A stretch of DNA of 54,848 nucleotides from a virus (taxonomy: Duplodnaviria > Caudoviricetes), in the IMG/VR virus record IMGVR_UViG_3300036852_000068, positions 1 through 54,848 of that record. The stretch is one strand, 5' to 3'. The translations under genes were made by a program, and so were the position numbers. Below, one piece after another: positions 2,319 to 9,070 of this stretch (position 1 is its first letter; every line of letters begins with the position of its first letter). The notes under the pieces were generated by a model. That model ran no database searches. It had not been told where the DNA came from and saw only the letters and a list, made by a program, of their open reading frames with translations.

Positions 2319-2576
2319 ATGGACGCATCGCAACTTAGAGAACTAGCAACCAACGCACTTACCGGCTACTGGCCTGCGCATCTTGGTCTGAAAACCGACG
2401 CTGAGCGGATTGAGTATTTGGCGCGGTGTATTGAGACAGCGGCAGACGAAATCCAGCAAGGCGATGAAGCCTTTGAGCAGGTGACTGAACTCGAAACAAA
2501 AACTGAGCGGCTACAGAATGAGATTGACGAGCAAGCCGCTGAAATCGAATCGCTGAAGGCTCGAAAGGAAGGCTGA
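2319..2576 (+). CDS. Hypothetical coiled-coil protein
   Basis: GAGG RBS; acidic coiled-coil C-terminus; abuts the clamp gene. Confidence 0.65.
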   Translation: MDASQLRELATNALTGYWPAHLGLKTDAERIEYLARCIETAADEIQQGDEAFEQVTELETKTERLQNEIDEQAAEIESLKARKEG

Positions 2577-3670
2577 TGTTCACTGCCACCTCTGCCAATC
2601 TCTCCCGCGCCCTCTCGCTGGTGCTGGCCAGCGCGGAGGTCAAGGGAACCATGCCAGTGCTGGCCTACGTTCTGTTCGAAGCAAAGGACGGCCTGCTCAA
2701 GCTCACTGCTACTGACATTGACTCAACTATTGAAACGCAAATTGAGACGGTAGAGTGCGGTGATGACTTCGCATGGTGCGTGCCGGGTAAGCCGCTTTAT
2801 GATCTAGTCCGCCTGCTCACCGCCGACGTAACCCTGCTGGAGTTCAAAGGCCGTATCGCCGTTAGGTCAGGCGACGCCCAGCACTTGCTCCCGATGCTGC
2901 CTGCTGAGCATTTCCCGGCCATAGAAGCCGCCCAAACGGTCATAGGCGACCTAGACGGCGTCTTGCTCTCTAAAATGCTTTCTACGGCCATGCTGGGCGC
3001 GGAAACCAACCCTAATGGGGTTGATTGGCAGAAGAATGTTGAGGTAATCGGTAAAGACGGTCAATTAACCATTACCGGGTGTTCATCTGCTCAGATTTCC
3101 AGTGTGGCGGCTAAGTTCAATGGCGAGGTTGAGGCGGTAATCCCACAGCGAGCGGCAACGATCCTTGCGGCCTTTGCTGCTGGTAATGAATCCGTTTCTA
3201 TTGCCTGTTCTAACAACCTACTGACCCTGCGATCTGAAACCGGCGCAGCACATTCGCGGTTATCAGCACTAAGGATGGCCGATTGGCGCATGTTGATTCA
3301 GTCCGACTATCAGCACTCTATTGAGCTTAATCCTGAAGCCGCCTTACCCGCCCTCCGTCGTGCTCTGCTAGCATCGGGCAGTGGTGCGGTCAATATCCGG
3401 TTAGGCAACGGGCAGATGGTTGTGACCGCAACTAACGCCGATGATGGCCGGGAGGGAACCGAAGTATCAACAGTCAACGCCCCTACGCTCAACGGCAGCA
3501 CCTATGATCTTCGCTTGCTGGCCGCCCAACTAATCGACTACCTGCGCCTCTGCGACTCCCCGATTCTCTGGCATATCAACGAAGGTAATAGTTCGCTATT
3601 ATTCACCTTGAAAGAGCCAAAGGACTTCGAGTGGCGGTATATTCAGACGACGTTGAGGTTGCAGGGGTGA
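2576..3670 (+). CDS. dnaN: DNA polymerase III beta sliding clamp homologue (divergent)
   Basis: 364 aa. N-terminus 'PVLAYVLFEAKDGLLKLTATDID', 'VPGKPLYDLVRLL' and 'LPAEHFP' match the beta-clamp pattern. Confidence 0.8.
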   Translation: MFTATSANLSRALSLVLASAEVKGTMPVLAYVLFEAKDGLLKLTATDIDSTIETQIETVECGDDFAWCVPGKPLYDLVRLLTADVTLLEFKGRIAVRSGDAQHLLPMLPAEHFPAIEAAQTVIGDLDGVLLSKMLSTAMLGAETNPNGVDWQKNVEVIGKDGQLTITGCSSAQISSVAAKFNGEVEAVIPQRAATILAAFAAGNESVSIACSNNLLTLRSETGAAHSRLSALRMADWRMLIQSDYQHSIELNPEAALPALRRALLASGSGAVNIRLGNGQMVVTATNADDGREGTEVSTVNAPTLNGSTYDLRLLAAQLIDYLRLCDSPILWHINEGNSSLLFTLKEPKDFEWRYIQTTLRLQG

Positions 3671-4404
3671 CGCCATATTACTCAGAAGCGGGGATTGAAA
3701 TCTGGCTGGGTGATTGCCGTGAAATATGGCCGACCTTGGGAGAGATCGATCTAGTCTGTACCGACCCGCCATTTGAAGCTGAGGCTCATACGCCAATGCG
3801 ACGAACCAACAGGAGTATTCAAACAAAAGAAAACGTCGCTATGCCGTTTGCGCCGATTACGGAAGAATTGCGTGGCTGGTTGACTAACATTCAATGTAAC
3901 TGGCTCTTAGCATTCTGCCAAGCCGAAGCCGTTAGTATTTACCAAGTGTCTCTGGGATTAAAATATCGTCGCCCTATGGTCTGGGTTAAGCCTGACTCAG
4001 CACCGCAATTCACCGGGGATCGTCCGGCGATGGGTTATGAGTCTATCGTCTGCGCGTGGATGGCAGAAGGTAAGAGTCGCTGGAACGGTGGCGGGCGGCG
4101 CGGGGTGTTCACGTACAGCGTCAATGGTTACGAACGATGGCATCCAACACAAAAACCGTTACCGCTGATGACGGAACTAATCTCACTGTTCAGCTTGGGC
4201 GGGGTGATATGCGACCCCTTCCTCGGTAGTGGTACCACTCTCCTCGCTGCCAAACAACTGCGCCGCAAGGCTGTAGGGATCGAAATTGAGGAACGTTATT
4301 GTGAAATCGCAGCTAAAAGATTAATGAATTGTCCTGAGCCGTTGGCATATGCGCCGATAGCGCAAGAGAAGGTTGAACCTGTTTCGCTGTTTGCTGCTGA
4401 GTGA
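3667..4404 (+). CDS. Orphan DNA methyltransferase 1 (N6A/N4C, beta class)
   Basis: TDPPF catalytic motif, HPTQKP, DPFLGSGTT SAM-binding motif, GIEIEERY; GTG start overlapping the clamp stop (GTGA). Confidence 0.9.
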   Translation: MTPYYSEAGIEIWLGDCREIWPTLGEIDLVCTDPPFEAEAHTPMRRTNRSIQTKENVAMPFAPITEELRGWLTNIQCNWLLAFCQAEAVSIYQVSLGLKYRRPMVWVKPDSAPQFTGDRPAMGYESIVCAWMAEGKSRWNGGGRRGVFTYSVNGYERWHPTQKPLPLMTELISLFSLGGVICDPFLGSGTTLLAAKQLRRKAVGIEIEERYCEIAAKRLMNCPEPLAYAPIAQEKVEPVSLFAAE

Positions 4405-4411
4405 TCACTGA

Positions 4412-5932
4412 ATGGAACCTTACTACCAAGACGAGTCAATAACGATATTCAGCGCGAGTTGTCTTAATGCGCTTCCGTATCTTGCTGATTGCTCCGTTGA
4501 TTCAGTCGTTACCGATCCGCCTTACGAGTTGGGATTCATGGGTAAGTCTTGGGATCGCTCTGGCATCGCTTACAACGTCGAAGTCTGGAAAGAATGTTTG
4601 CGCGTCTTGAAGCCCGGTGGACATCTTCTCGCCTTCGGAGGATCGCGTACTTACCACCGATTAGCTTGCGCGATTGAAGATGCAGGGTTTGAGATTCGGG
4701 ATCAAATTCAATGGATTTACGGCTCAGGATTTCCCAAAAGTTTAGACGTTAGCAAGGCAATTGACGCGGCAGCGGGCGCAGAACGGGGAGTAATCGGACG
4801 AGCTAAGGGAGCGGCGTCAAGTCAGACGCATAGCCTCGGCGTGTTTGCCCCTTCTTATGACGCGACCGCTCCCGCAACCGAAGAAGCAAAGCAATGGAGC
4901 GGTTGGGGCACAGCATTGAAGCCAAGCCATGAGCCAATAATATGGGCTCGTAAACCCTTGACTCCTGTTCTTATTGAGAGTAAACTAGTAGCAGAAACCC
5001 AGCATTTAATCGGGAGCCTGCTATGCCAATTACTATCAAGTGCGAACAGTGCGGAAGTGATTTTAGCGTCAAGCCCAAGCGTGTCAGGCGAGGCGTCCGC
5101 TTCTGCTCTACTGCTTGCCGCCGTGCTTCGTGGGCCATCGTTAGACGGGTGGTGCGAGCGGATGGCTACGTGCAGCTCACAGGAAACGGTCTCAACCTGC
5201 TTGAGCATCGCGTCGTCATGGAACGACATCTTGGACACGCTCTTGAATCGTGGGAGCAGGTTCACCACCGAAACCATAATCGGTCTGACAACCGCATTAA
5301 AAACCTTGAACTCTTATCTATCGGAGATCATGCCCGCGAGCATCATCCGGGACGCGTCCCTTCCTGTTGGCGAGTTGCTAAATGTAGAGGTTGCGGAAAG
5401 CAATTTGAGCGACGGGCCAAAGAGCTTGAGGCTCACCCAAGAGCATACTGCTCGCGTACTTGCTTCGTTACGTCAGGTGCTCACATCTGCCAACGGTGCG
5501 GAAGCCGGTTTCACGGCGGCGGCTCGCGTCGCAAATTCTGCTCTACGATCTGCTATCACACATCTCGAAGAAAGCCTGCCGCCTGAAACTCGCCCCGCAC
5601 ACGAGCCGATTGTGTTAGCTCGTAAGCCTCTTATCGGAACCGTCGCAGAGAACGTCTTACAGCACGGAACGGGCGGGTTGAATGTTGATGGATGCAGGAT
5701 CGAAACCGTTGACGTGTATTCGTATCCAAACGGCCCCGGCGGTAAATCACACCACTACAGCAGTGACAAACGCAGCGTTGAAGTTCGCCCTAATCCCGCC
5801 GAGAGCAATCCGTTAGGCCGCTGGCCCGCAAACGTGATTCTGTCCTATCCCGAAGATGAATACGAACTTTGCGCAAGTGTGACCGCAGAGCAAAAGAAAG
5901 AACTGTTTCAGTGGCTTTATGAGAACGCCTAA
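4412..5932 (+). CDS. DNA methyltransferase 2, N-terminal piece (contains a 224-aa in-frame insertion overprinting HNH-1)
   Basis: VTDPPYELGFMGKSWD, RVLKPGGHLLAF, WIYGSGFPKS, GWGTALKP, HEPIxxARKPL (twice), GRWPANVIL. Confidence 0.9.
   Translation: MEPYYQDESITIFSASCLNALPYLADCSVDSVVTDPPYELGFMGKSWDRSGIAYNVEVWKECLRVLKPGGHLLAFGGSRTYHRLACAIEDAGFEIRDQIQWIYGSGFPKSLDVSKAIDAAAGAERGVIGRAKGAASSQTHSLGVFAPSYDATAPATEEAKQWSGWGTALKPSHEPIIWARKPLTPVLIESKLVAETQHLIGSLLCQLLSSANSAEVILASSPSVSGEASASALLLAAVLRGPSLDGWCERMATCSSQETVSTCLSIASSWNDILDTLLNRGSRFTTETIIGLTTALKTLNSYLSEIMPASIIRDASLPVGELLNVEVAESNLSDGPKSLRLTQEHTARVLASLRQVLTSANGAEAGFTAAARVANSALRSAITHLEESLPPETRPAHEPIVLARKPLIGTVAENVLQHGTGGLNVDGCRIETVDVYSYPNGPGGKSHHYSSDKRSVEVRPNPAESNPLGRWPANVILSYPEDEYELCASVTAEQKKELFQWLYENA
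4958..4986 (+). promoter_or_regulatory. Internal sigma70-type promoter for HNH-1
   Basis: TTGACT-17 bp-TAAACT inside the insertion, followed by GGGAG RBS and ATG at 5023. Confidence 0.6.
5023..5586 (+). CDS. HNH homing endonuclease 1, overprinted in an alternative frame inside the methyltransferase
   Basis: EHRVVMERHLG..L...EQVHHRNHNRSDNRIKNLEL (HNH_3 type) plus three CxxC...(F/Y)CSxxC zinc-finger repeats; own RBS. Confidence 0.9.
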   Translation: MPITIKCEQCGSDFSVKPKRVRRGVRFCSTACRRASWAIVRRVVRADGYVQLTGNGLNLLEHRVVMERHLGHALESWEQVHHRNHNRSDNRIKNLELLSIGDHAREHHPGRVPSCWRVAKCRGCGKQFERRAKELEAHPRAYCSRTCFVTSGAHICQRCGSRFHGGGSRRKFCSTICYHTSRRKPAA

Positions 5933-6548
5933 TTGCAAATGCTTGGTCTGTGATAAGCCGCTTTATCGCCGTCCGTATGAGTTGGCGAAAGTGAGGCATG
6001 TTGCGTGTATGACGCACAGAGCCGAAGCACAGAAGATTTCAGGTATCACCGAAGCGCAACGAGCGGGGCTATCACGCGGCAGGGTGAAGGGCGATAACCG
6101 CCGGACGGGTTGCAAGCAAAGCGAAGCGATGAAGCAAAAAGTTTCAGAAGCGAACCGAAAGTATTGGGCGTCACACCCTGACGAACTCGCCGCCAGAGGC
6201 GAGCAGATGCGCGGAGAGAATCACTACAAATGGAAAGGCGGCGCGACAAAACTCAACATCGCAATCCGCCAGATGAATGAAAACCGAAAATGGATGGACG
6301 CGGTGAAGGAAAGAGACGGCGGCAAATGCGTTCGCTGCGGTAGTGCCGATCAAGTGGAAAGCCATCACATTATCGAACTCGTGATGCTGATCGAACTTTA
6401 TGAAGTAAAGACGCGAGATGAAGCACGCGGCATCACGGCATTTTGGGATTTAGACAACGGCCAAACACTTTGCCAGCGATGCCACTACGCGCATCACGGG
6501 AGAACCTATCGTGAGGATCGAAGAGAAAACCTACAACTTGCTGCCTAG
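5919..6548 (+). CDS. HNH homing endonuclease 2, splitting the methyltransferase gene
   Basis: NUMOD3-like KQSEAMKQKVSEAN, GENHYKWKGG, RDGGKCVRCG...ESHHI...NGQTLCQRCH. Confidence 0.9.
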   Translation: MRTPNCKCLVCDKPLYRRPYELAKVRHVACMTHRAEAQKISGITEAQRAGLSRGRVKGDNRRTGCKQSEAMKQKVSEANRKYWASHPDELAARGEQMRGENHYKWKGGATKLNIAIRQMNENRKWMDAVKERDGGKCVRCGSADQVESHHIIELVMLIELYEVKTRDEARGITAFWDLDNGQTLCQRCHYAHHGRTYREDRRENLQLAA

Positions 6549-7299
6549 CCATCTGAAAGCCCTGTTTCGGAAGCTGCCGAACCATGGATCGGATGAAGTG
6601 CTGGCGGGGTTTCCTGAGACAGGGATAAGTGCAGGCGGCGGCATGAAAGACTTACAAAAGGGCAAGTTGTTTCAGGGCGAAACTAATCCCAATATCACCA
6701 ACACGTCGGGATTTGGCGATTTCGGTTCTGCAGCCCGTTTCTTCTTTTGCGCGAAAGCCTCTCAAGAAGAACGCAATGCAGGACTCAGTGGCGGCGTTCA
6801 ATTGCTTGACTGTGCTGCGCTAGTTTGCTACCCTTCCCGATCATGGGTATTCGCGGCCCTCAATCAAAGGCTCCTGGAGGATACGGTAGCATTAGCAAAA
6901 AAGGCTACCGCCGAATCTATGATCCAAACGAGCGAAGGTTTCGTATGGAGCATGTGCTTGTGTGGGAGTCCTACAACGGACATATTCCACCCGGCTATCA
7001 AATCCATCATCGAAACGGAAACAAAATTGATAACGAAATTGGAAACTTGGAACTCCTCAGCCCAACCGCACACAAACGGCTGCATGGCGGCTGCGTTTGG
7101 CGTGACGGCCAATGGCGGAAACCTTGCAAGCTATGCGGAATTTCAAAGCCCATTAATGCGTCAAACTGGTATCTCAGCAAAGAAGGATGGCCGCTATATG
7201 GTCGATGCCGACCTTGCCACGTCAATAAAGTCGTGGCTGACAAGCGCGCCCGTAGGAGGCGGGCAAAGGATGGGAGTGCGTAATTCCCATCCTACGTGA
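6511..7299 (+). CDS. DNA methyltransferase 2, middle piece (in-frame insertion overprinting HNH-3)
   Basis: GGGAG RBS and GTG start; HGSDEVLAGFP, GSAARFFFCAKASQEERNAGL ... RNSHPT then TGA. Confidence 0.8.
   Translation: MRIEEKTYNLLPSHLKALFRKLPNHGSDEVLAGFPETGISAGGGMKDLQKGKLFQGETNPNITNTSGFGDFGSAARFFFCAKASQEERNAGLSGGVQLLDCAALVCYPSRSWVFAALNQRLLEDTVALAKKATAESMIQTSEGFVWSMCLCGSPTTDIFHPAIKSIIETETKLITKLETWNSSAQPHTNGCMAAAFGVTANGGNLASYAEFQSPLMRQTGISAKKDGRYMVDADLATSIKSWLTSAPVGGGQRMGVRNSHPT
6806..6834 (+). promoter_or_regulatory. Internal leaderless promoter for HNH-3
   Basis: TTGACT-17 bp-TACCCT with extended -10 TG; ATG 8 nt downstream at 6843. Confidence 0.55.
6843..7283 (+). CDS. HNH homing endonuclease 3, overprinted in an alternative frame
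   Basis: EHVLVWESYNGHIPPGYQIHHRNGNKIDNEIGNLELL plus C-terminal CxxC...CxxC. Confidence 0.9.
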   Translation: MGIRGPQSKAPGGYGSISKKGYRRIYDPNERRFRMEHVLVWESYNGHIPPGYQIHHRNGNKIDNEIGNLELLSPTAHKRLHGGCVWRDGQWRKPCKLCGISKPINASNWYLSKEGWPLYGRCRPCHVNKVVADKRARRRRAKDGSA

Positions 7300-7569
7300 A
7301 CAGTCAAGCCTCTAGCCTTAATGCAATACCTAATCAAACTCATTACTCTACCAAACGGAATAGTGCTCGACCCGTTTGCCGGATCAGGCAGCACGCTTAT
7401 AGCAGCAAAGCAGTTAGGGTATAAAGCTATTGGGATTGAGAAAGAGGAAGAATATTGCGCTATCGCCCAGCATCGGCTGCTAAATCTTCCTGAGCCACTA
7501 ACCTACGATGAGCCGATTAAGCCTGCTAAGCCAGCGCGGATAGTTGAGCAACCGGAGTCGCTATTTTGA
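7300..7569 (+). CDS. DNA methyltransferase 2, C-terminal SAM-binding piece (same frame as 6511..7299, after the TGA)
   Basis: TVKPLALMQYLIKLIT..NGIVLDPFAGSGSTLIAA..GIEKEEEY; no RBS before ATG 7321. Confidence 0.8.
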   Translation, partial: TVKPLALMQYLIKLITLPNGIVLDPFAGSGSTLIAAKQLGYKAIGIEKEEEYCAIAQHRLLNLPEPLTYDEPIKPAKPARIVEQPESLF

Positions 7570-7641
7570 TTACAATCAAAGCCCAATTCTTTTCCGTCAA
7601 CGGCTACCGGCCGCTCGCGCGTATGAAAGGATACAACACCT

Positions 7642-7998
7642 ATGCGACCTATACGCTTGTATGTTTCCGGCCCAATGACCGGCTATCTTGATTTTAACTA
7701 TCCCACATTCGAATCAGCCACCAAGCAGTTACGCGCCGCAGGCTATGAAGTTGTTAGTCCGCATGAGTTGGTAACGGATACTACTCTTGATTGGAAAGAA
7801 TGCATGAAGGTAGATATTCGCGCGCTACTAGATTGTGAAGGCATCGCTACTTTAGAGGGTTGTGAGAAGTCAAAGGGTGCAACACTTGAGAATACGATTG
7901 CCGCCGCAATGGGAATGGAAATTAGGACATTAGCCGACTGGTTGGATAAAGCTATCGAAATACAGCACAAAGCGGCACAGCGGCGAACTGGACTATAG
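7642..7998 (+). CDS. DUF4406-family protein (nucleoside deoxyribosyltransferase-like fold)
   Basis: YVSGPMTG..DFNYPTF...GYEVVSP...CM..DI..LLDC.......EKSKGATLE pattern. Confidence 0.8.
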   Translation: MRPIRLYVSGPMTGYLDFNYPTFESATKQLRAAGYEVVSPHELVTDTTLDWKECMKVDIRALLDCEGIATLEGCEKSKGATLENTIAAAMGMEIRTLADWLDKAIEIQHKAAQRRTGL

Positions 7999-8026
7999 CC
8001 CTAATTAAATTGATTGATTGTTGACG

Positions 8027-8260
8027 CTAAACTAGCTCATCTTCCCACACGGCTATATACGTCAGATTCTTCCTCCACTTCCGCCCTGTTTGCTTTTGCA
8101 CCTTTGCACATAAAAGACAGCGCCGCCGAATAGATAAATCCGCGATATTAACTTCGTCCTGCCCTTTCAACCCCCATTCATCTGTCCCTCGTACCGGCTC
8201 ACTAAATGGAACACGCAGCCACCAGTGTCCAAATAGGAAATGGAGAAACCTCATTGACAC
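8027..8260 (-). CDS. Hypothetical small protein, last gene of the late operon
   Basis: LFGHxW ... CxxC pattern; overlaps upstream gene. Confidence 0.5.
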   Translation of the reverse strand: MSMRFLHFLFGHWWLRVPFSEPVRGTDEWGLKGQDEVNIADLSIRRRCLLCAKVQKQTGRKWRKNLTYIAVWEDELV

Positions 8261-8784
8261 CTTCCGGCAAACACCTTGATCGCCTGCGCCGTAGGAATGA
8301 CAAGTTTGAAGCCGATCTGCGCTGGCTGGGAATTGAGAAAGTCCAACGCCTTACCCCAGAAGCCCGACGCATTGCCCTTAGGAATAAACGACTGAGCCTC
8401 TACCCGCAGTTCCCGCTCACTCATAAACAGCCCGAAATTGCGCCTAGCATCCTCTCTAGCGCGTTCAAAGTCGGTTTGGAGACTATCTGCCTTCTGCTTC
8501 TCCAGCGCGGCTTGTGCGGCCTTTAATTCGACTTGCAGGGTTAGTTCGCGTATTTGGGTAACTTGCTCTGTATTGACCTTCTGTGCAGCGTCAAAGTTAT
8601 TCTGGAGAATCTGCCACGAGTCAAGTTGCTCGCGCGTGATGGCGAGATATTGCTTGTCATCAATCTCTACGCGAATCGACCCATCAGGCAGCCGTTCAAT
8701 TATTCTTTGGCTTTGGCACACCGCCGCCGAAAGCATCATCATCGCTGCGACTGCGAACGGCATCATTAAGTTTCTTAGTTTCAT
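8251..8784 (-). CDS. Exported coiled-coil lysis-region protein (spanin-like candidate)
   Basis: N-terminal signal peptide, long coiled coil, downstream of holin and endolysin. Confidence 0.45.
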   Translation of the reverse strand: MKLRNLMMPFAVAAMMMLSAAVCQSQRIIERLPDGSIRVEIDDKQYLAITREQLDSWQILQNNFDAAQKVNTEQVTQIRELTLQVELKAAQAALEKQKADSLQTDFERAREDARRNFGLFMSERELRVEAQSFIPKGNASGFWGKALDFLNSQPAQIGFKLVIPTAQAIKVFAGRCQ

Positions 8785-9070
8785 CTATAATCACCCTCAC
8801 TCGCTCTTGACTTGCCCGCAACCGCTCCTCCGATGCCTGCTCTTGGAGTTTCGATTCAGCTAACAGTGCATCCCATCGCTTGCGATTCTCCACGGACGCC
8901 GCATAAGCCACCTCTGATTGTCGAGCCAGTTCCGCAGCATCTAACGCTTTCTGTTCCGCTTGGGTGACGCGGTCATTAAACGACTTCAGCCTTGCTTCCA
9001 GATCGGGATCGGCATACCTCTCCAGAATCCCGGCTAACATGCGAGCCAGCCATCGAAAGATTGTTTCCAT
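8696..9070 (-). CDS. Coiled-coil lysis-region protein (spanin-like candidate)
   Basis: Amphipathic N-terminus plus coiled coil; overlaps the next gene by 89 nt. Confidence 0.4.
   Translation of the reverse strand: METIFRWLARMLAGILERYADPDLEARLKSFNDRVTQAEQKALDAAELARQSEVAYAASVENRKRWDALLAESKLQEQASEERLRASQERVRVIIDETKKLNDAVRSRSDDDAFGGGVPKPKNN

What the first reader, a model, noticed from the sequence alone, without database searches (positions are those of the whole stretch)
4412..7569. One methyltransferase gene carries three HNH endonucleases with no visible intron or intein
Seen: the motifs of a single beta-class N6A/N4C MTase are spread in order over 3.1 kb (4412-4924, 5597-5845, 6583-6786, 7279-7569), separated by three unrelated HNH genes. 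The boundaries lack intein termini (no C/S...HN) and I see no group I/II intron core. In inserts 1 and 3 the HNH stop falls right where conserved MTase sequence resumes. Established: homing endonucleases usually avoid killing the host gene by RNA or protein splicing. Inference: these elements spare the host by overprinting and gene splitting instead, and this gene is a multi-site landing pad for them. I recall one related case (the ShiLan insertion in actinophage methylases, with an out-of-frame HNH), so the principle is not wholly new. Three such elements using different strategies in one gene is striking.
Basis: partly seen in the sequence, partly recalled or inferred. Interest (0 to 1): 0.9.

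Follow-up and report, generated by a model that had tools for sequence, protein, structure and literature searches.

The report
Phage methylase invaded by three endonucleases
One DNA methylase gene of a soil phage has been invaded at three places by three selfish HNH endonuclease genes that use no intron or intein: two keep the host reading frame open across themselves and one cuts the gene into two overlapping genes.

Summary
Window 4412-7569 is one beta-class N6A/N4C DNA methylase (PF01555; the actinophage Dorothy_75/ShiLan_65 family) in four pieces, separated by three intact HNH genes. Rfam finds no intron and Pfam finds no intein.

- **Element 1 (4925-5596)** belongs to the published ShiLan family: same site, homologous HNH, HNH out of frame, host frame open.
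- **Element 3 (~6787-7275)** uses the same trick at another site. I found no description of it. The host frame is open in 14 of 14 viral-contig relatives. Free-standing relatives of its HNH have 2-6 stops in that frame.
- **Element 2 (5864-6573)** splits the gene into two translationally overlapping ORFs. It adds a conserved C-terminal tail and N-terminal leader. It recurs in 8 viral, 51 metagenome and 2 MAG loci. Fifteen empty alleles, HNH-deleted alleles and one re-fused allele were also found. The closest precedent is nrdA/mobE of phage Aeh1.

In this window a 6-bp extra stretch puts a TGA inside the conserved HPT-VKP motif (7297-7299). This copy of the methylase is therefore probably impaired, although all three HNH genes are intact.

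Verdict: real, with the principles already published. It adds two apparently undescribed element families and a rare triple occupancy, seen in only one other locus (L150).

The parts
3631..4404 (+). Context: intact neighbouring paralogue, methylase A (257 aa)
   Evidence: PF01555 over the whole profile, 4.1e-24; phrog_67
4412..5932 (+). N-ORF of methylase B (506 aa): piece 1, read-through of element 1, piece 2 and the tail
   Evidence: One open frame; PF01555 N half; 56-58% identity to uninterrupted mycobacteriophage methylases
4412..4924 (+). Methylase piece 1, with the DPPY motif, ending at ...GWGTALKP
   Evidence: position worked out
4925..5596 (+). Element 1, ShiLan-type insertion (672 bp, 224 codons). 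The host frame is open. It starts with a degenerate copy of the 12 residues that follow it.
   Evidence: Same site as ShiLan gp65, Cr-LKS3 g59 and L004; pseudo-duplicate at 47% over 32 aa
5023..5586 (+). HNH1 (187 aa), in the -1 frame relative to the host; GGGAG lies 6 nt upstream of the ATG
   Evidence: PF13392; 39% identity and 2e-22 to the ORF inside ShiLan gp65, 52% to Cr-LKS3; 0 stops in the host frame
5597..5863 (+). Methylase piece 2, from AHEPIV... to ...RWPANVILSYPEDEY
   Evidence: empty alleles show that SYPEDEY is native methylase sequence
5864..6573 (+). Element 2 (710 bp): tail, HNH2 and leader. It splits the gene and changes its frame.
   Evidence: Boundaries from 15 empty alleles; same layout in 9 of 9 loci
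5864..5932 (+). Tail: 22 element-borne codons plus the stop, added to the N-ORF. The last 14 nt overlap the start of HNH2.
   Evidence: 47 of 60 occupied tails have the same length; pN/pS is 0.52 in the host frame against 0.97 and 1.58 in the other frames
5919..6548 (+). HNH2 (209 aa), zinc-ribbon type HNH
   Evidence: PF01844; 77% identity to L085 and 45-59% to others, always between the two methylase halves
6511..7299 (+). M-ORF (262 aa): leader, piece 3, read-through of element 3, ...NSHPT, then TGA
   Evidence: The GTG at 6511 sits at the position of the ATG in relatives. GGGAG lies 8 nt upstream.
6511..6573 (+). Leader: 21 element-borne codons that restart the methylase; overlaps the end of HNH2 by 38 nt
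   Evidence: Five leader residues are invariant in 13 C-ORFs
6574..6786 (+). Methylase piece 3, from LPNHGSDEV... through RFFFCAKAS to ...ERNAGL
6787..7275 (+). Element 3 (about 490 bp; ends approximate because the loop varies in length). The host frame is open across it.
   Evidence: Homologous inserts at this site in 14 viral contigs, all open
6843..7283 (+). HNH3 (146 aa from ATG 6843; an upstream TTG at 6825 is possible), in the -1 frame relative to the host
   Evidence: PF13392, 1.9e-14; 72% identity to L092 and 68% to L093; 0 stops in the host frame
7276..7569 (+). Methylase piece 4 (VRNSHPT, TGA, TVKPLALM...DPFAGSGST...). The only in-frame start after the stop is ATG 7321.
   Evidence: PF01555 C end
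7294..7299 (+). Six extra bases carrying an in-frame TGA inside the HPT-VKP motif
   Evidence: Absent from 12 of 12 site-3 relatives aligned at this junction; present in the contigs of two runs

Best explanation
Methylase B (4412-7569) is a beta-class N6A/N4C DNA methylase. Three independent HNH homing-endonuclease genes have colonised it, and none relies on RNA or protein splicing.

Elements 1 and 3 sit in length-tolerant parts of the protein. Their HNH lies in the -1 frame relative to the host, so the host frame is the HNH frame +1. That host frame is kept free of stops. The methylase is therefore made with an extra 160-225-residue loop, predicted with low confidence. The HNH is made from an internal start.

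Element 2 cannot be read through. It converts the gene into three overlapping cistrons: methylase-N with a 22-residue tail, then HNH2, then a 21-residue leader with methylase-C. The two halves are inferred to reassemble, as NrdA-a and NrdA-b do in phage Aeh1.

Shown: anatomy, homology, recurrence, empty alleles, open frames, and conservation of catalytic motifs and tails.

Inferred: homing, internal initiation, and reassembly of the halves.

In this window a 6-bp extra stretch with a TGA in the HPT-VKP motif detaches the last 82-89 residues, which carry the AdoMet motif. This copy of the methylase is probably impaired and at the start of decay. The three HNH genes remain intact.
For: Anatomy and families.

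No intron or intein.

Element 1:
- The HNH is homologous to the one hidden in ShiLan gp65. Mantra, Starcevich, Bipolar, Filuzino, Pollywog and Cr-LKS3 also carry it.
- It sits at the same site and has the same pseudo-duplicate.

Element 3:
- In-gene relatives occur in 5 loci and 9 more loci. The host frame is a single ORF in 14 of 14.
- L128, L150, L163 and L165 are also open.

Frame statistics:
- Stops in the host (+1) frame are 0 in 15 of 15 in-gene site-1 and site-3 HNH ORFs.
- They number 2-6 in 4 of 4 free-standing HNH3 relatives, and 10-14 in 6 of 6 HNH2-type ORFs.
- The HNH frame, not the host frame, is the conserved one: 72/68% against 48/44% identity, and 52/51% against 35/31%.

Element 2:
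- The layout is identical in 9 of 9 loci, with the N-ORF stop 13 nt after the HNH ATG.
- In the metagenome scan of 67 loci, 51 have the tail plus a stop, 15 are empty and 1 is re-fused. Of the 51, 46 have an HNH2 homologue.
- DPPY is invariant in 20 of 20 N-ORFs of split alleles. HP.KP and DPF.GSG.T are invariant in 13 of 13 C-ORFs, at 38-78% identity.
- Tail pN/pS is 0.52 in the host frame only.
- L122 lost the HNH but kept the split, the tail and the leader.

The TGA is unique to the window among 13 junctions.
Against: - No RNA or protein data exist for any of these loci. No RNA run was found.
- Homing is inferred from patchy occupancy only.
- For single loci the openness of the +1 frame is weakly significant. 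Synonymous permutation gives P(open) from 0.003 to 0.80. The argument rests on the contrast with free-standing relatives and on recurrence in related, not fully independent, sequences.
- HNH3 and HNH2 have no visible Shine-Dalgarno sequence.
- Structure models neither support nor refute packing of the tail against the leader. Those helices have pLDDT below 50.
- One site-3 lineage (L145/L146) has a broken host frame at the 5' junction, and the window has the TGA. Sparing of the host is therefore not universal.
- The two sequencing runs may be the source of the contig.
Confidence: 0.75

Rival explanations
1. This copy of methylase B is still fully active. Either the TGA at 7297 is read through, or the enzyme assembles from three polypeptides (N-ORF, M-ORF and a C-ORF from ATG 7321).
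For: Every other part of the host frames is open, and DPPY and DPFAGSGST are intact. Two-piece alleles are evidently maintained.
Against: The stop lies inside the most conserved motif of the C half. Restarting at ATG 7321 would drop VKPLAL, and no Shine-Dalgarno sequence precedes it. Neighbouring genes use TGA as an ordinary stop at 4402-4404, 5584-5586 and 7567-7569. None of the 12 relatives has the extra 6 bp.
Confidence: 0.2
2. Cryptic splicing. One or more inserts are unrecognised self-splicing introns or intein-like elements, and the mature methylase is uninterrupted.
For: Element 2 follows a U and ends in G. Element 1 begins with a copy of the downstream exon residues, which the ShiLan paper noted as intron-like (PMC11855218, section 3.1).
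Against: Rfam gave 0 matches at E<=1 and Pfam gave no Hint or intein family. Only about 55 nt (5') and 25 nt (3') of element 2 lie outside HNH2. Splicing would remove any need for open host frames (15 of 15) or for selected tails and leaders. The residue after each insert is not a conserved C, S or T. The authors of PMC11855218 also found no intron or intein signal for the ShiLan family (sections 3.1, 3.2, 3.5).
Confidence: 0.05
3. The HNH genes are not selfish homing genes. They are working partners of the methylase, forming a restriction-modification-like or anti-defence module, and their position inside the gene serves co-regulation.
For: HNH genes of the HNH3 family also sit directly downstream of uninterrupted methylases (L095, L099, L101, L103). 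ShiLan has an HNH gene just upstream of gp65.
Against: Occupancy is low and patchy in the 80-locus set: ShiLan site 2 of 69, site 2 1 of 68, site 3 5 of 75. Degraded or deleted HNH copies occur with the methylase kept (L115, L122, L143). Different HNH families occupy the same site (L157, L162, L167 at site 2; L015 at site 1). This pattern is the gain, decay and loss cycle of homing genes.
Confidence: 0.07
4. The whole locus is a long-dead pseudogene, and the open frames are chance.
For: The TGA at 7297. The methylase is dispensable in relatives according to PMC11855218 (section 4.1).
Against: 224-codon and about 165-codon out-of-frame stretches have no stop, whereas free-standing relatives carry 2-6 stops. 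All motifs are intact. The architecture is conserved in dozens of diverged loci.
Confidence: 0.03

Closest known systems
ShiLan domain: hidden out-of-frame HNH in actinophage methylases (Arsenault, Gosselin and Gogarten 2025, PMC11855218; Gosselin et al. 2023, PMC9957025)
   Same: Element 1 shares the methylase family, the insertion site, a homologous HNH (39% identity, 2e-22), the relative frame, the open host frame, a degenerate copy of the downstream residues at the insert start, and an HNH stop at the 3' end.
   Different: The host is a soil metagenome phage, not an actinophage isolate. The start is ATG with GGGAG, not GTG at +18. The stop is TGA 10 nt before the end, not TAAC. Elements 2 and 3 occupy other sites and are not mentioned in the parts of these papers that I read. 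Their repository and supplements were not seen.
Pacc40 gp60 insertion, with free-standing relatives in Tiff81 and Sashimi (PMC11855218, section 3.6)
   Same: Element 3 is likewise a second, different out-of-frame HNH. Its relatives are free-standing genes next to uninterrupted methylases.
   Different: Pacc40 gp60 is a divergent helicase-methylase of another family, and its free-standing relatives lie upstream. Here they lie downstream, and the host is the ShiLan-type methylase family.
nrdA split by mobE in Aeromonas phage Aeh1 (Crona et al. 2010, PMC3045599, abstract read; Friedrich et al. 2007, recalled and not seen)
   Same: Element 2 is a free-standing endonuclease gene that fragments a host gene into two genes. 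Each half carries a tail that arose with the insertion.
   Different: The host gene (methylase) and endonuclease family (HNH) differ. Here the tail and leader are conserved across dozens of diverged loci, so they travel with the element. Their function is untested here, whereas the NrdA tails were shown to be essential.
Inteins with out-of-frame homing endonucleases (bioRxiv 10.1101/2025.01.02.630785, passages read; bioRxiv 10.64898/2026.09.14.751524, listing only)
   Same: Relatives L085, L086, L150, L151 and L153 carry such an intein in the same methylase, at YG|SGFPKS.
   Different: The window's intein site is empty. None of its three elements has intein ends or a Hint domain.
Solved beta-class methylases DpnA (5HEK), CcrMI (6PBD), M.RsrI and M.MboIIA
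   Same: Profile matches from 3.5e-33 to 2e-19. Motif order is DPPY first and FxGxG last.
   Different: These are uninterrupted single chains. The family here has a longer and variable middle region.

Membership tests
Beta-class N6A/N4C DNA methylase (Pfam PF01555) | Pfam match above the gathering score | tested here: met
   The N-ORF scores 47.4 bits and the C-ORF 68.2 bits against a cut-off of 26.7. Together they cover profile positions 1-107 and 171-220 of 221.
Beta-class N6A/N4C DNA methylase (Pfam PF01555) | Catalytic DPPY upstream of the AdoMet motif FxGxG | tested here: met
   DPPY lies in piece 1 and DPFAGSGST in piece 4. The order matches DpnA, CcrMI and RsrI.
Beta-class N6A/N4C DNA methylase (Pfam PF01555) | One uninterrupted coding frame | tested here: not met
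   There are three ORFs (4412-5932, 6511-7299, 7321-7569), with a TGA in the HPT-VKP motif.
Beta-class N6A/N4C DNA methylase (Pfam PF01555) | Methyl transfer to DNA | not testable with these tools
   This needs expression plus SMRT or nanopore sequencing, or a restriction-protection assay.
ShiLan-type element (element 1) | HNH homologous to the one hidden in ShiLan gp65 | tested here: met
   39.1% identity over 78% of the query, 2e-22, under gp65
ShiLan-type element (element 1) | Same insertion site in the methylase | tested here: met
   It lies between ...GWGTALKP and ...EPIV.ARKPL.GTVA in the window, ShiLan, Cr-LKS3 and L004.
ShiLan-type element (element 1) | HNH out of frame, no stop in the host frame | tested here: met
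   224 codons are open and the host frame is the HNH frame +1.
ShiLan-type element (element 1) | GTG start 18 bp into the insert and TAAC at the very end | tested here: not met
   The start is ATG, 98 bp into the insert. The stop is TGA, 10 nt before the end. The paper itself lists exceptions (Mantra, Starcevich).
HNH endonuclease (PF13392 for HNH1 and HNH3; PF01844 for HNH2) | Pfam match above the cut-off and an intact H-N-H core | tested here: met
   Scores are 42.0, 53.4 and 23.7 bits against cut-offs of 24.8, 24.8 and 21.4. PHROG HNH families also match. The cores are visible in the translations.
Homing endonuclease gene (mobile) | Patchy presence at a fixed site, with empty alleles | tested here: met
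   There are 15 empty site-2 alleles. Most of the 80 viral loci are empty at every site.
Homing endonuclease gene (mobile) | The enzyme cuts the empty allele and copies itself in | not testable with these tools
   This needs cleavage and co-infection or plasmid homing assays.
Group I or group II intron | Match to an intron covariance model, or room for a catalytic core | tested here: not met
   Rfam gave 0 matches at E<=1. Element 2 has about 80 nt outside its ORF. Elements 1 and 3 are almost entirely ORF.
Intein | Hint domain, a C, S or A first residue, and a terminal HN followed by C, S or T | tested here: not met
   No intein family was found in the N-ORF or the M-ORF. The junction residues are not conserved nucleophiles. 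A true intein in relatives L085 and L150 looks quite different.
Endonuclease-split gene with assembly tails (nrdA/mobE type) | Endonuclease gene between two halves, with tails absent from uninterrupted alleles | tested here: met
   Tail pN/pS is 0.52 and the leader has invariant residues.
Endonuclease-split gene with assembly tails (nrdA/mobE type) | Tails needed for the activity of the reassembled enzyme | not testable with these tools
The fold of the re-fused allele L152 was inconclusive in this region.

The most novel reading that the evidence does not exclude
Element 2 is a portable split-and-reassemble cassette. The endonuclease gene travels with its own conserved tail and leader peptides, plus start and stop signals. 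These let any methylase of this family survive being cut in two. The cassette leaves working split genes (L122) or re-fused genes (L152) behind when the endonuclease is lost.

Together with elements 1 and 3, this would make three splicing-free ways of harmless insertion that coexist and compete in one gene family. The frame rule, seen in 15 of 15 cases, is that the host frame is always the HNH frame +1, the frame cheapest to keep free of stops.
Probability: 0.35. Interest if true: 0.75.

Novelty: new variant of a known kind. Interest (0 to 1): 0.6.

Why it matters
Homing endonucleases are usually thought to need an intron or an intein to enter a coding gene without killing it. This locus and its relatives show the two splicing-free alternatives working side by side in one gene family:
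- overprinting with an open host frame;
- gene splitting with element-borne tails.

Both are common in environmental phages, not only in the actinophage isolates where the first was described.

The material is directly testable. It includes natural occupied, empty, endonuclease-deleted and re-fused alleles for site 2. It also includes in-gene and free-standing versions of the same HNH for site 3.

It matters for annotation too. Such methylases are called as hypothetical proteins, fragments or oversized methylases, and the hidden HNH genes are missed.

The conserved tail and leader pair, if it mediates assembly, could serve as a natural tag for split proteins.

Tried and rejected
- **Intron:** Rfam at E<=1 on 3000-9000 gave nothing.
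- **Intein:** Pfam found no family in the host-frame ORFs. A split-intein reading of the site-2 tail and leader was rejected. They are 22 and 21 residues long, the first and +1 residues vary, and SYPEDEY and LPNPG proved to be native methylase sequence in empty alleles.
- **Altered genetic code for the TGA at 7297:** rejected, because neighbouring genes end in TGA. Frameshift readings at the TGA give no methylase sequence (my reading).
- **Sequencing runs:** 2 runs were listed (X1, X2), both kept as contigs and both possibly the source. No RNA holder was listed. No joints, variants or insert-free alleles were seen.
- **Structure models:**
  - L152 (re-fused allele): the core is confident, but the tail and leader helices have pLDDT below 50, so the result is inconclusive.
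  - L056 (site-3 occupied): the core is confident, and the read-through has pLDDT 38-72. This is compatible with a looped-out insert but shows nothing more.
- **Genome scan for hosts:** only 2 MAG contigs (Alphaproteobacteria, Anaerolineaceae), so the host is unresolved. No tRNA was found.
- **GenBank phages:**
  - HNH3: none of the 40 listed rows (434 records matched) lies in a methylase.
  - HNH2: 7 weak records, none in a methylase.
- **Literature:** the searches found no description of site-2 or site-3 methylase elements. Supplements and the authors' repository were not seen and may list more cases.
- **HNH made by -1 frameshifting from the host frame:** considered but not tested. HNH1 has its own ATG and GGGAG.

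Full report
**What the window is.** The window is a complete IMG/VR virus record of 54,848 bases. It is linear, with a CheckV completeness estimate of 44%. Two soil-metagenome runs hold it.

The finding lies in a replication module. In order this holds a sliding clamp (2576-3670), an intact methylase A (3631-4404), the interrupted methylase B, and a DUF4406 gene (7642-7998). The three HNH queries match nowhere else in the window.

**The observation.** Searches give these ORFs:
- a 506-aa ORF (4412-5932) with the N half of PF01555;
- an 82-aa ORF (7321-7569) with the C end of PF01555;
- a 262-aa ORF (6511-7299) with no Pfam family;
- three HNH ORFs: 5023-5586 (PF13392), 5919-6548 (PF01844) and 6825/6843-7283 (PF13392).

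tblastn with the uninterrupted Xula gp53 and with Cr-LKS3 g59 maps the methylase pieces to 4415-~4945, 5591-5845, 6574-6792 and 7282-7479.

Rfam gives no match at E<=1. Pfam gives no intein family in the host-frame ORFs. The contigs of two runs are identical over 4300-7700, but they may be the source of the record.

**Element 1 (4925-5596).** HNH1 is homologous to the ORF hidden in ShiLan gp65 (39%, 2e-22). The same ORF occurs in Mantra, OwlsT2W, Totinger, Bipolar, Starcevich, Filuzino, Pollywog, MISSy and Murica, and at 52% identity in Cylindrospermopsis phage Cr-LKS3.

The insertion point is the same in the window, ShiLan, Cr-LKS3 and L004. So is the degenerate copy of the downstream residues at the start of the insert (47% over 32 residues).

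This is the ShiLan domain of Arsenault et al. 2025. I read the abstract, Results and Discussion of PMC11855218. The authors likewise found no intron or intein signal and proposed that the insert stays in the protein as a loop. Gosselin et al. 2023 had shown three insertion sites in this methylase family: an intein, a LAGLIDADG endonuclease and ShiLan. I read the abstract and the first part of the Results of PMC9957025.

**Element 3 (~6787-7275).** HNH3 has no in-methylase relative among GenBank phages. It recurs at the same site in 14 viral contigs:
- L056, L062, L074, L075 and L077;
- L092, L093, L094, L096, L097, L098, L100, L102 and L104.

In all 14 the methylase is one open ORF across the insert. 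In the metagenome loci:
- L128, L150, L163 and L165 are also open.
- L145 and L146, one lineage, have a frame break at the 5' junction.
- L109 and L111 were not checked for stops.

Four relatives of HNH3 (L095, L099, L101, L103) are free-standing genes just downstream of uninterrupted methylases. This echoes the Pacc40 against Tiff81/Sashimi case of PMC11855218, section 3.6.

**Evidence that the open host frame is selected.** The host frame is the HNH frame +1 in all 15 in-gene site-1 and site-3 ORFs tested, and it has 0 stops in each.

| HNH ORFs | Stops in the +1 frame |
|---|---|
| 15 in-gene site-1 and site-3 ORFs | 0 in each |
| 4 free-standing HNH3 relatives | 2-6 |
| 6 HNH2-type ORFs | 10-14 |

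Synonymous permutation within each in-gene ORF gives P(open) of only 0.003-0.80. Their codon content is already depleted of stop-forming combinations, with mean expected stops of 0.2-3.8 in the +1 frame against 3.4-17 in the +2 frame. A single locus is therefore weak evidence. The contrast with free-standing relatives carries the argument.

Identity is higher in the HNH frame than in the host frame:
- 72/68% against 48/44% for L092/L093;
- 52/51% against 35/31% for L001/L004.

So the HNH is the selected protein, and the host-frame peptide is only kept open. A fold of the site-3-occupied L056 methylase has a confident core and pLDDT 38-72 in the read-through. This is compatible with a looped-out insert.

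**Element 2 (5864-6573).** HNH2 lies between two methylase ORFs in different frames. The same layout is found in 8 viral contigs (L039, L085-L091). In all 9 loci, counting the window, the N-ORF stops 13 nt after the HNH ATG.

A metagenome scan with the tail alignment returned 67 loci:

| Class | Loci |
|---|---|
| Tail followed by a stop | 51 |
| Empty alleles | 15 |
| Tail and leader fused in frame, no HNH (L152) | 1 |

The 51 loci with a tail and a stop break down as follows:
- 46 have an HNH2 homologue. Some are truncated or internally deleted, such as L115.
- 2 have lost the HNH (L122, L143).
- 3 hold a different PF13392-like HNH (L157, L162, L167).

The empty alleles show that SYPEDEY and LPNPG are native methylase sequence. 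They fix the element's ends at 5864 and 6573 in the window.

The element adds a 22-residue tail and a 21-residue leader:
- The tail has the same length in 47 of 60 occupied alleles.
- Its pN/pS is 0.52 in the host frame, against 0.97 and 1.58 in the other frames.
- Five leader residues are invariant in 13 C-ORFs.

Across split alleles at 38-78% identity, DPPY is invariant in 20 of 20 N-ORFs. HP.KP and DPF.GSG.T are invariant in 13 of 13 C-ORFs. Both halves have therefore stayed under selection while split.

The closest precedent is nrdA of phage Aeh1. It is split by mobE, and its insertion-derived tails are essential for activity (Crona et al. 2010, PMC3045599, abstract read).

**The lesion in this copy.** After ...NSHPT the host frame has TGA ACA and then VKPLALM. 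Twelve of 12 site-3 relatives aligned at this junction have the motif uninterrupted. The window therefore has 6 extra bases carrying a stop.

Three points argue against rescue:
- TGA is an ordinary stop in the neighbouring genes.
- The only in-frame start after the stop is ATG 7321. It would drop part of the motif.
- That ATG has no Shine-Dalgarno sequence.

I conclude that this copy of methylase B is probably impaired, while the three HNH genes are full length. A minority reading (0.2) is read-through or three-piece assembly.

**Occupancy.** In the 80 viral loci kept from 226 matches to the N-ORF, anchor-motif spacing gives these counts. The denominators exclude loci lacking the anchors.

| Site | Occupied |
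|---|---|
| Intein site | 0 of 78 |
| ShiLan site | 2 of 69 |
| Site 2 | 1 of 68 |
| Site 3 | 5 of 75 |

Combinations do occur:
- L150 has an intein with its own out-of-frame HNH, plus site 2 and site 3. It is the only other triple found.
- L109, L111, L128 and L145/L146 have sites 2 and 3.
- L114 and L131 have the ShiLan site and site 2.
- L085, L086, L151 and L153 have the intein and site 2.

L085 is the nearest relative of the window's locus (HNH2 77%; DNA 74-79% identical in patches). It is empty at the ShiLan site and at site 3.

**Comparison and novelty.** The methylase is a beta-class enzyme. Its closest solved relatives are DpnA, CcrMI, RsrI and MboIIA.
- Element 1 is a new member of a published family.
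- Element 3 is a second family using the published trick at a new site in the same gene family.
- Element 2 is a methylase counterpart of the nrdA/mobE split. It has a conserved, element-borne tail and leader, and a visible cycle of gain, decay and loss.

Literature searches found no description of elements 2 or 3. I could not see supplements or the authors' repository. I rate the finding a new variant of a known kind, with interest 0.6.

Noticed in passing
L085:1062-3014, L150:1755-3617 (also L086, L151, L153): The same methylase family carries a genuine intein at the YG|SGFPKS site. It begins CLS.DTEI and ends ...TGN before S. Its interior encodes an HNH in another frame instead of an in-frame endonuclease domain. 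The window's intein site is empty.
   Followed up: partly
L122:3600-3700; L143:3617-3842: The site-2 element has lost its HNH. In L122 only the first four codons and the last few remain. The methylase nevertheless stays split, with tail, leader and start codon intact.
   Followed up: partly
L152:2706-4232: A 508-aa methylase in which a tail-like and a leader-like segment are fused in frame with no HNH between them. It may be a re-fused former split gene. The fold is confident for the core only.
   Followed up: partly
L157:585-1120, L162, L167: A different PF13392-like HNH with a different tail occupies the same site 2. The site has therefore been taken by more than one endonuclease family.
   Followed up: no
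L015:4359-4897: At the ShiLan region, just after ARKPL, there is another out-of-frame ORF with CxxC...DH...N...CxxC features and no similarity to HNH1 at 1e-3. The host frame is again open and again equals the ORF frame +1.
   Followed up: partly
L145:1006-1648, L146: This site-3 allele has the upstream methylase piece and the read-through plus C-terminal part in different frames. It is a second way in which site 3 has broken or split a host gene.
   Followed up: no
L046:6366-6601; L097: Some uninterrupted family members have an in-frame insert of about 100 residues that looks like a helix-turn-helix domain, in the variable region after GFPKS...AID. It was not checked against Pfam.
   Followed up: no
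window 3631-3670: The listed GTG start of methylase A overlaps the end of the sliding-clamp gene by 40 nt. Two adjacent PF01555 methylases are also seen in Cr-LKS3 and Xula.
   Followed up: no
window 4855-5277 (-): A 140-aa antisense ORF lies across the start of element 1. It is probably a by-product of the stop-poor composition there and was not examined.
   Followed up: no
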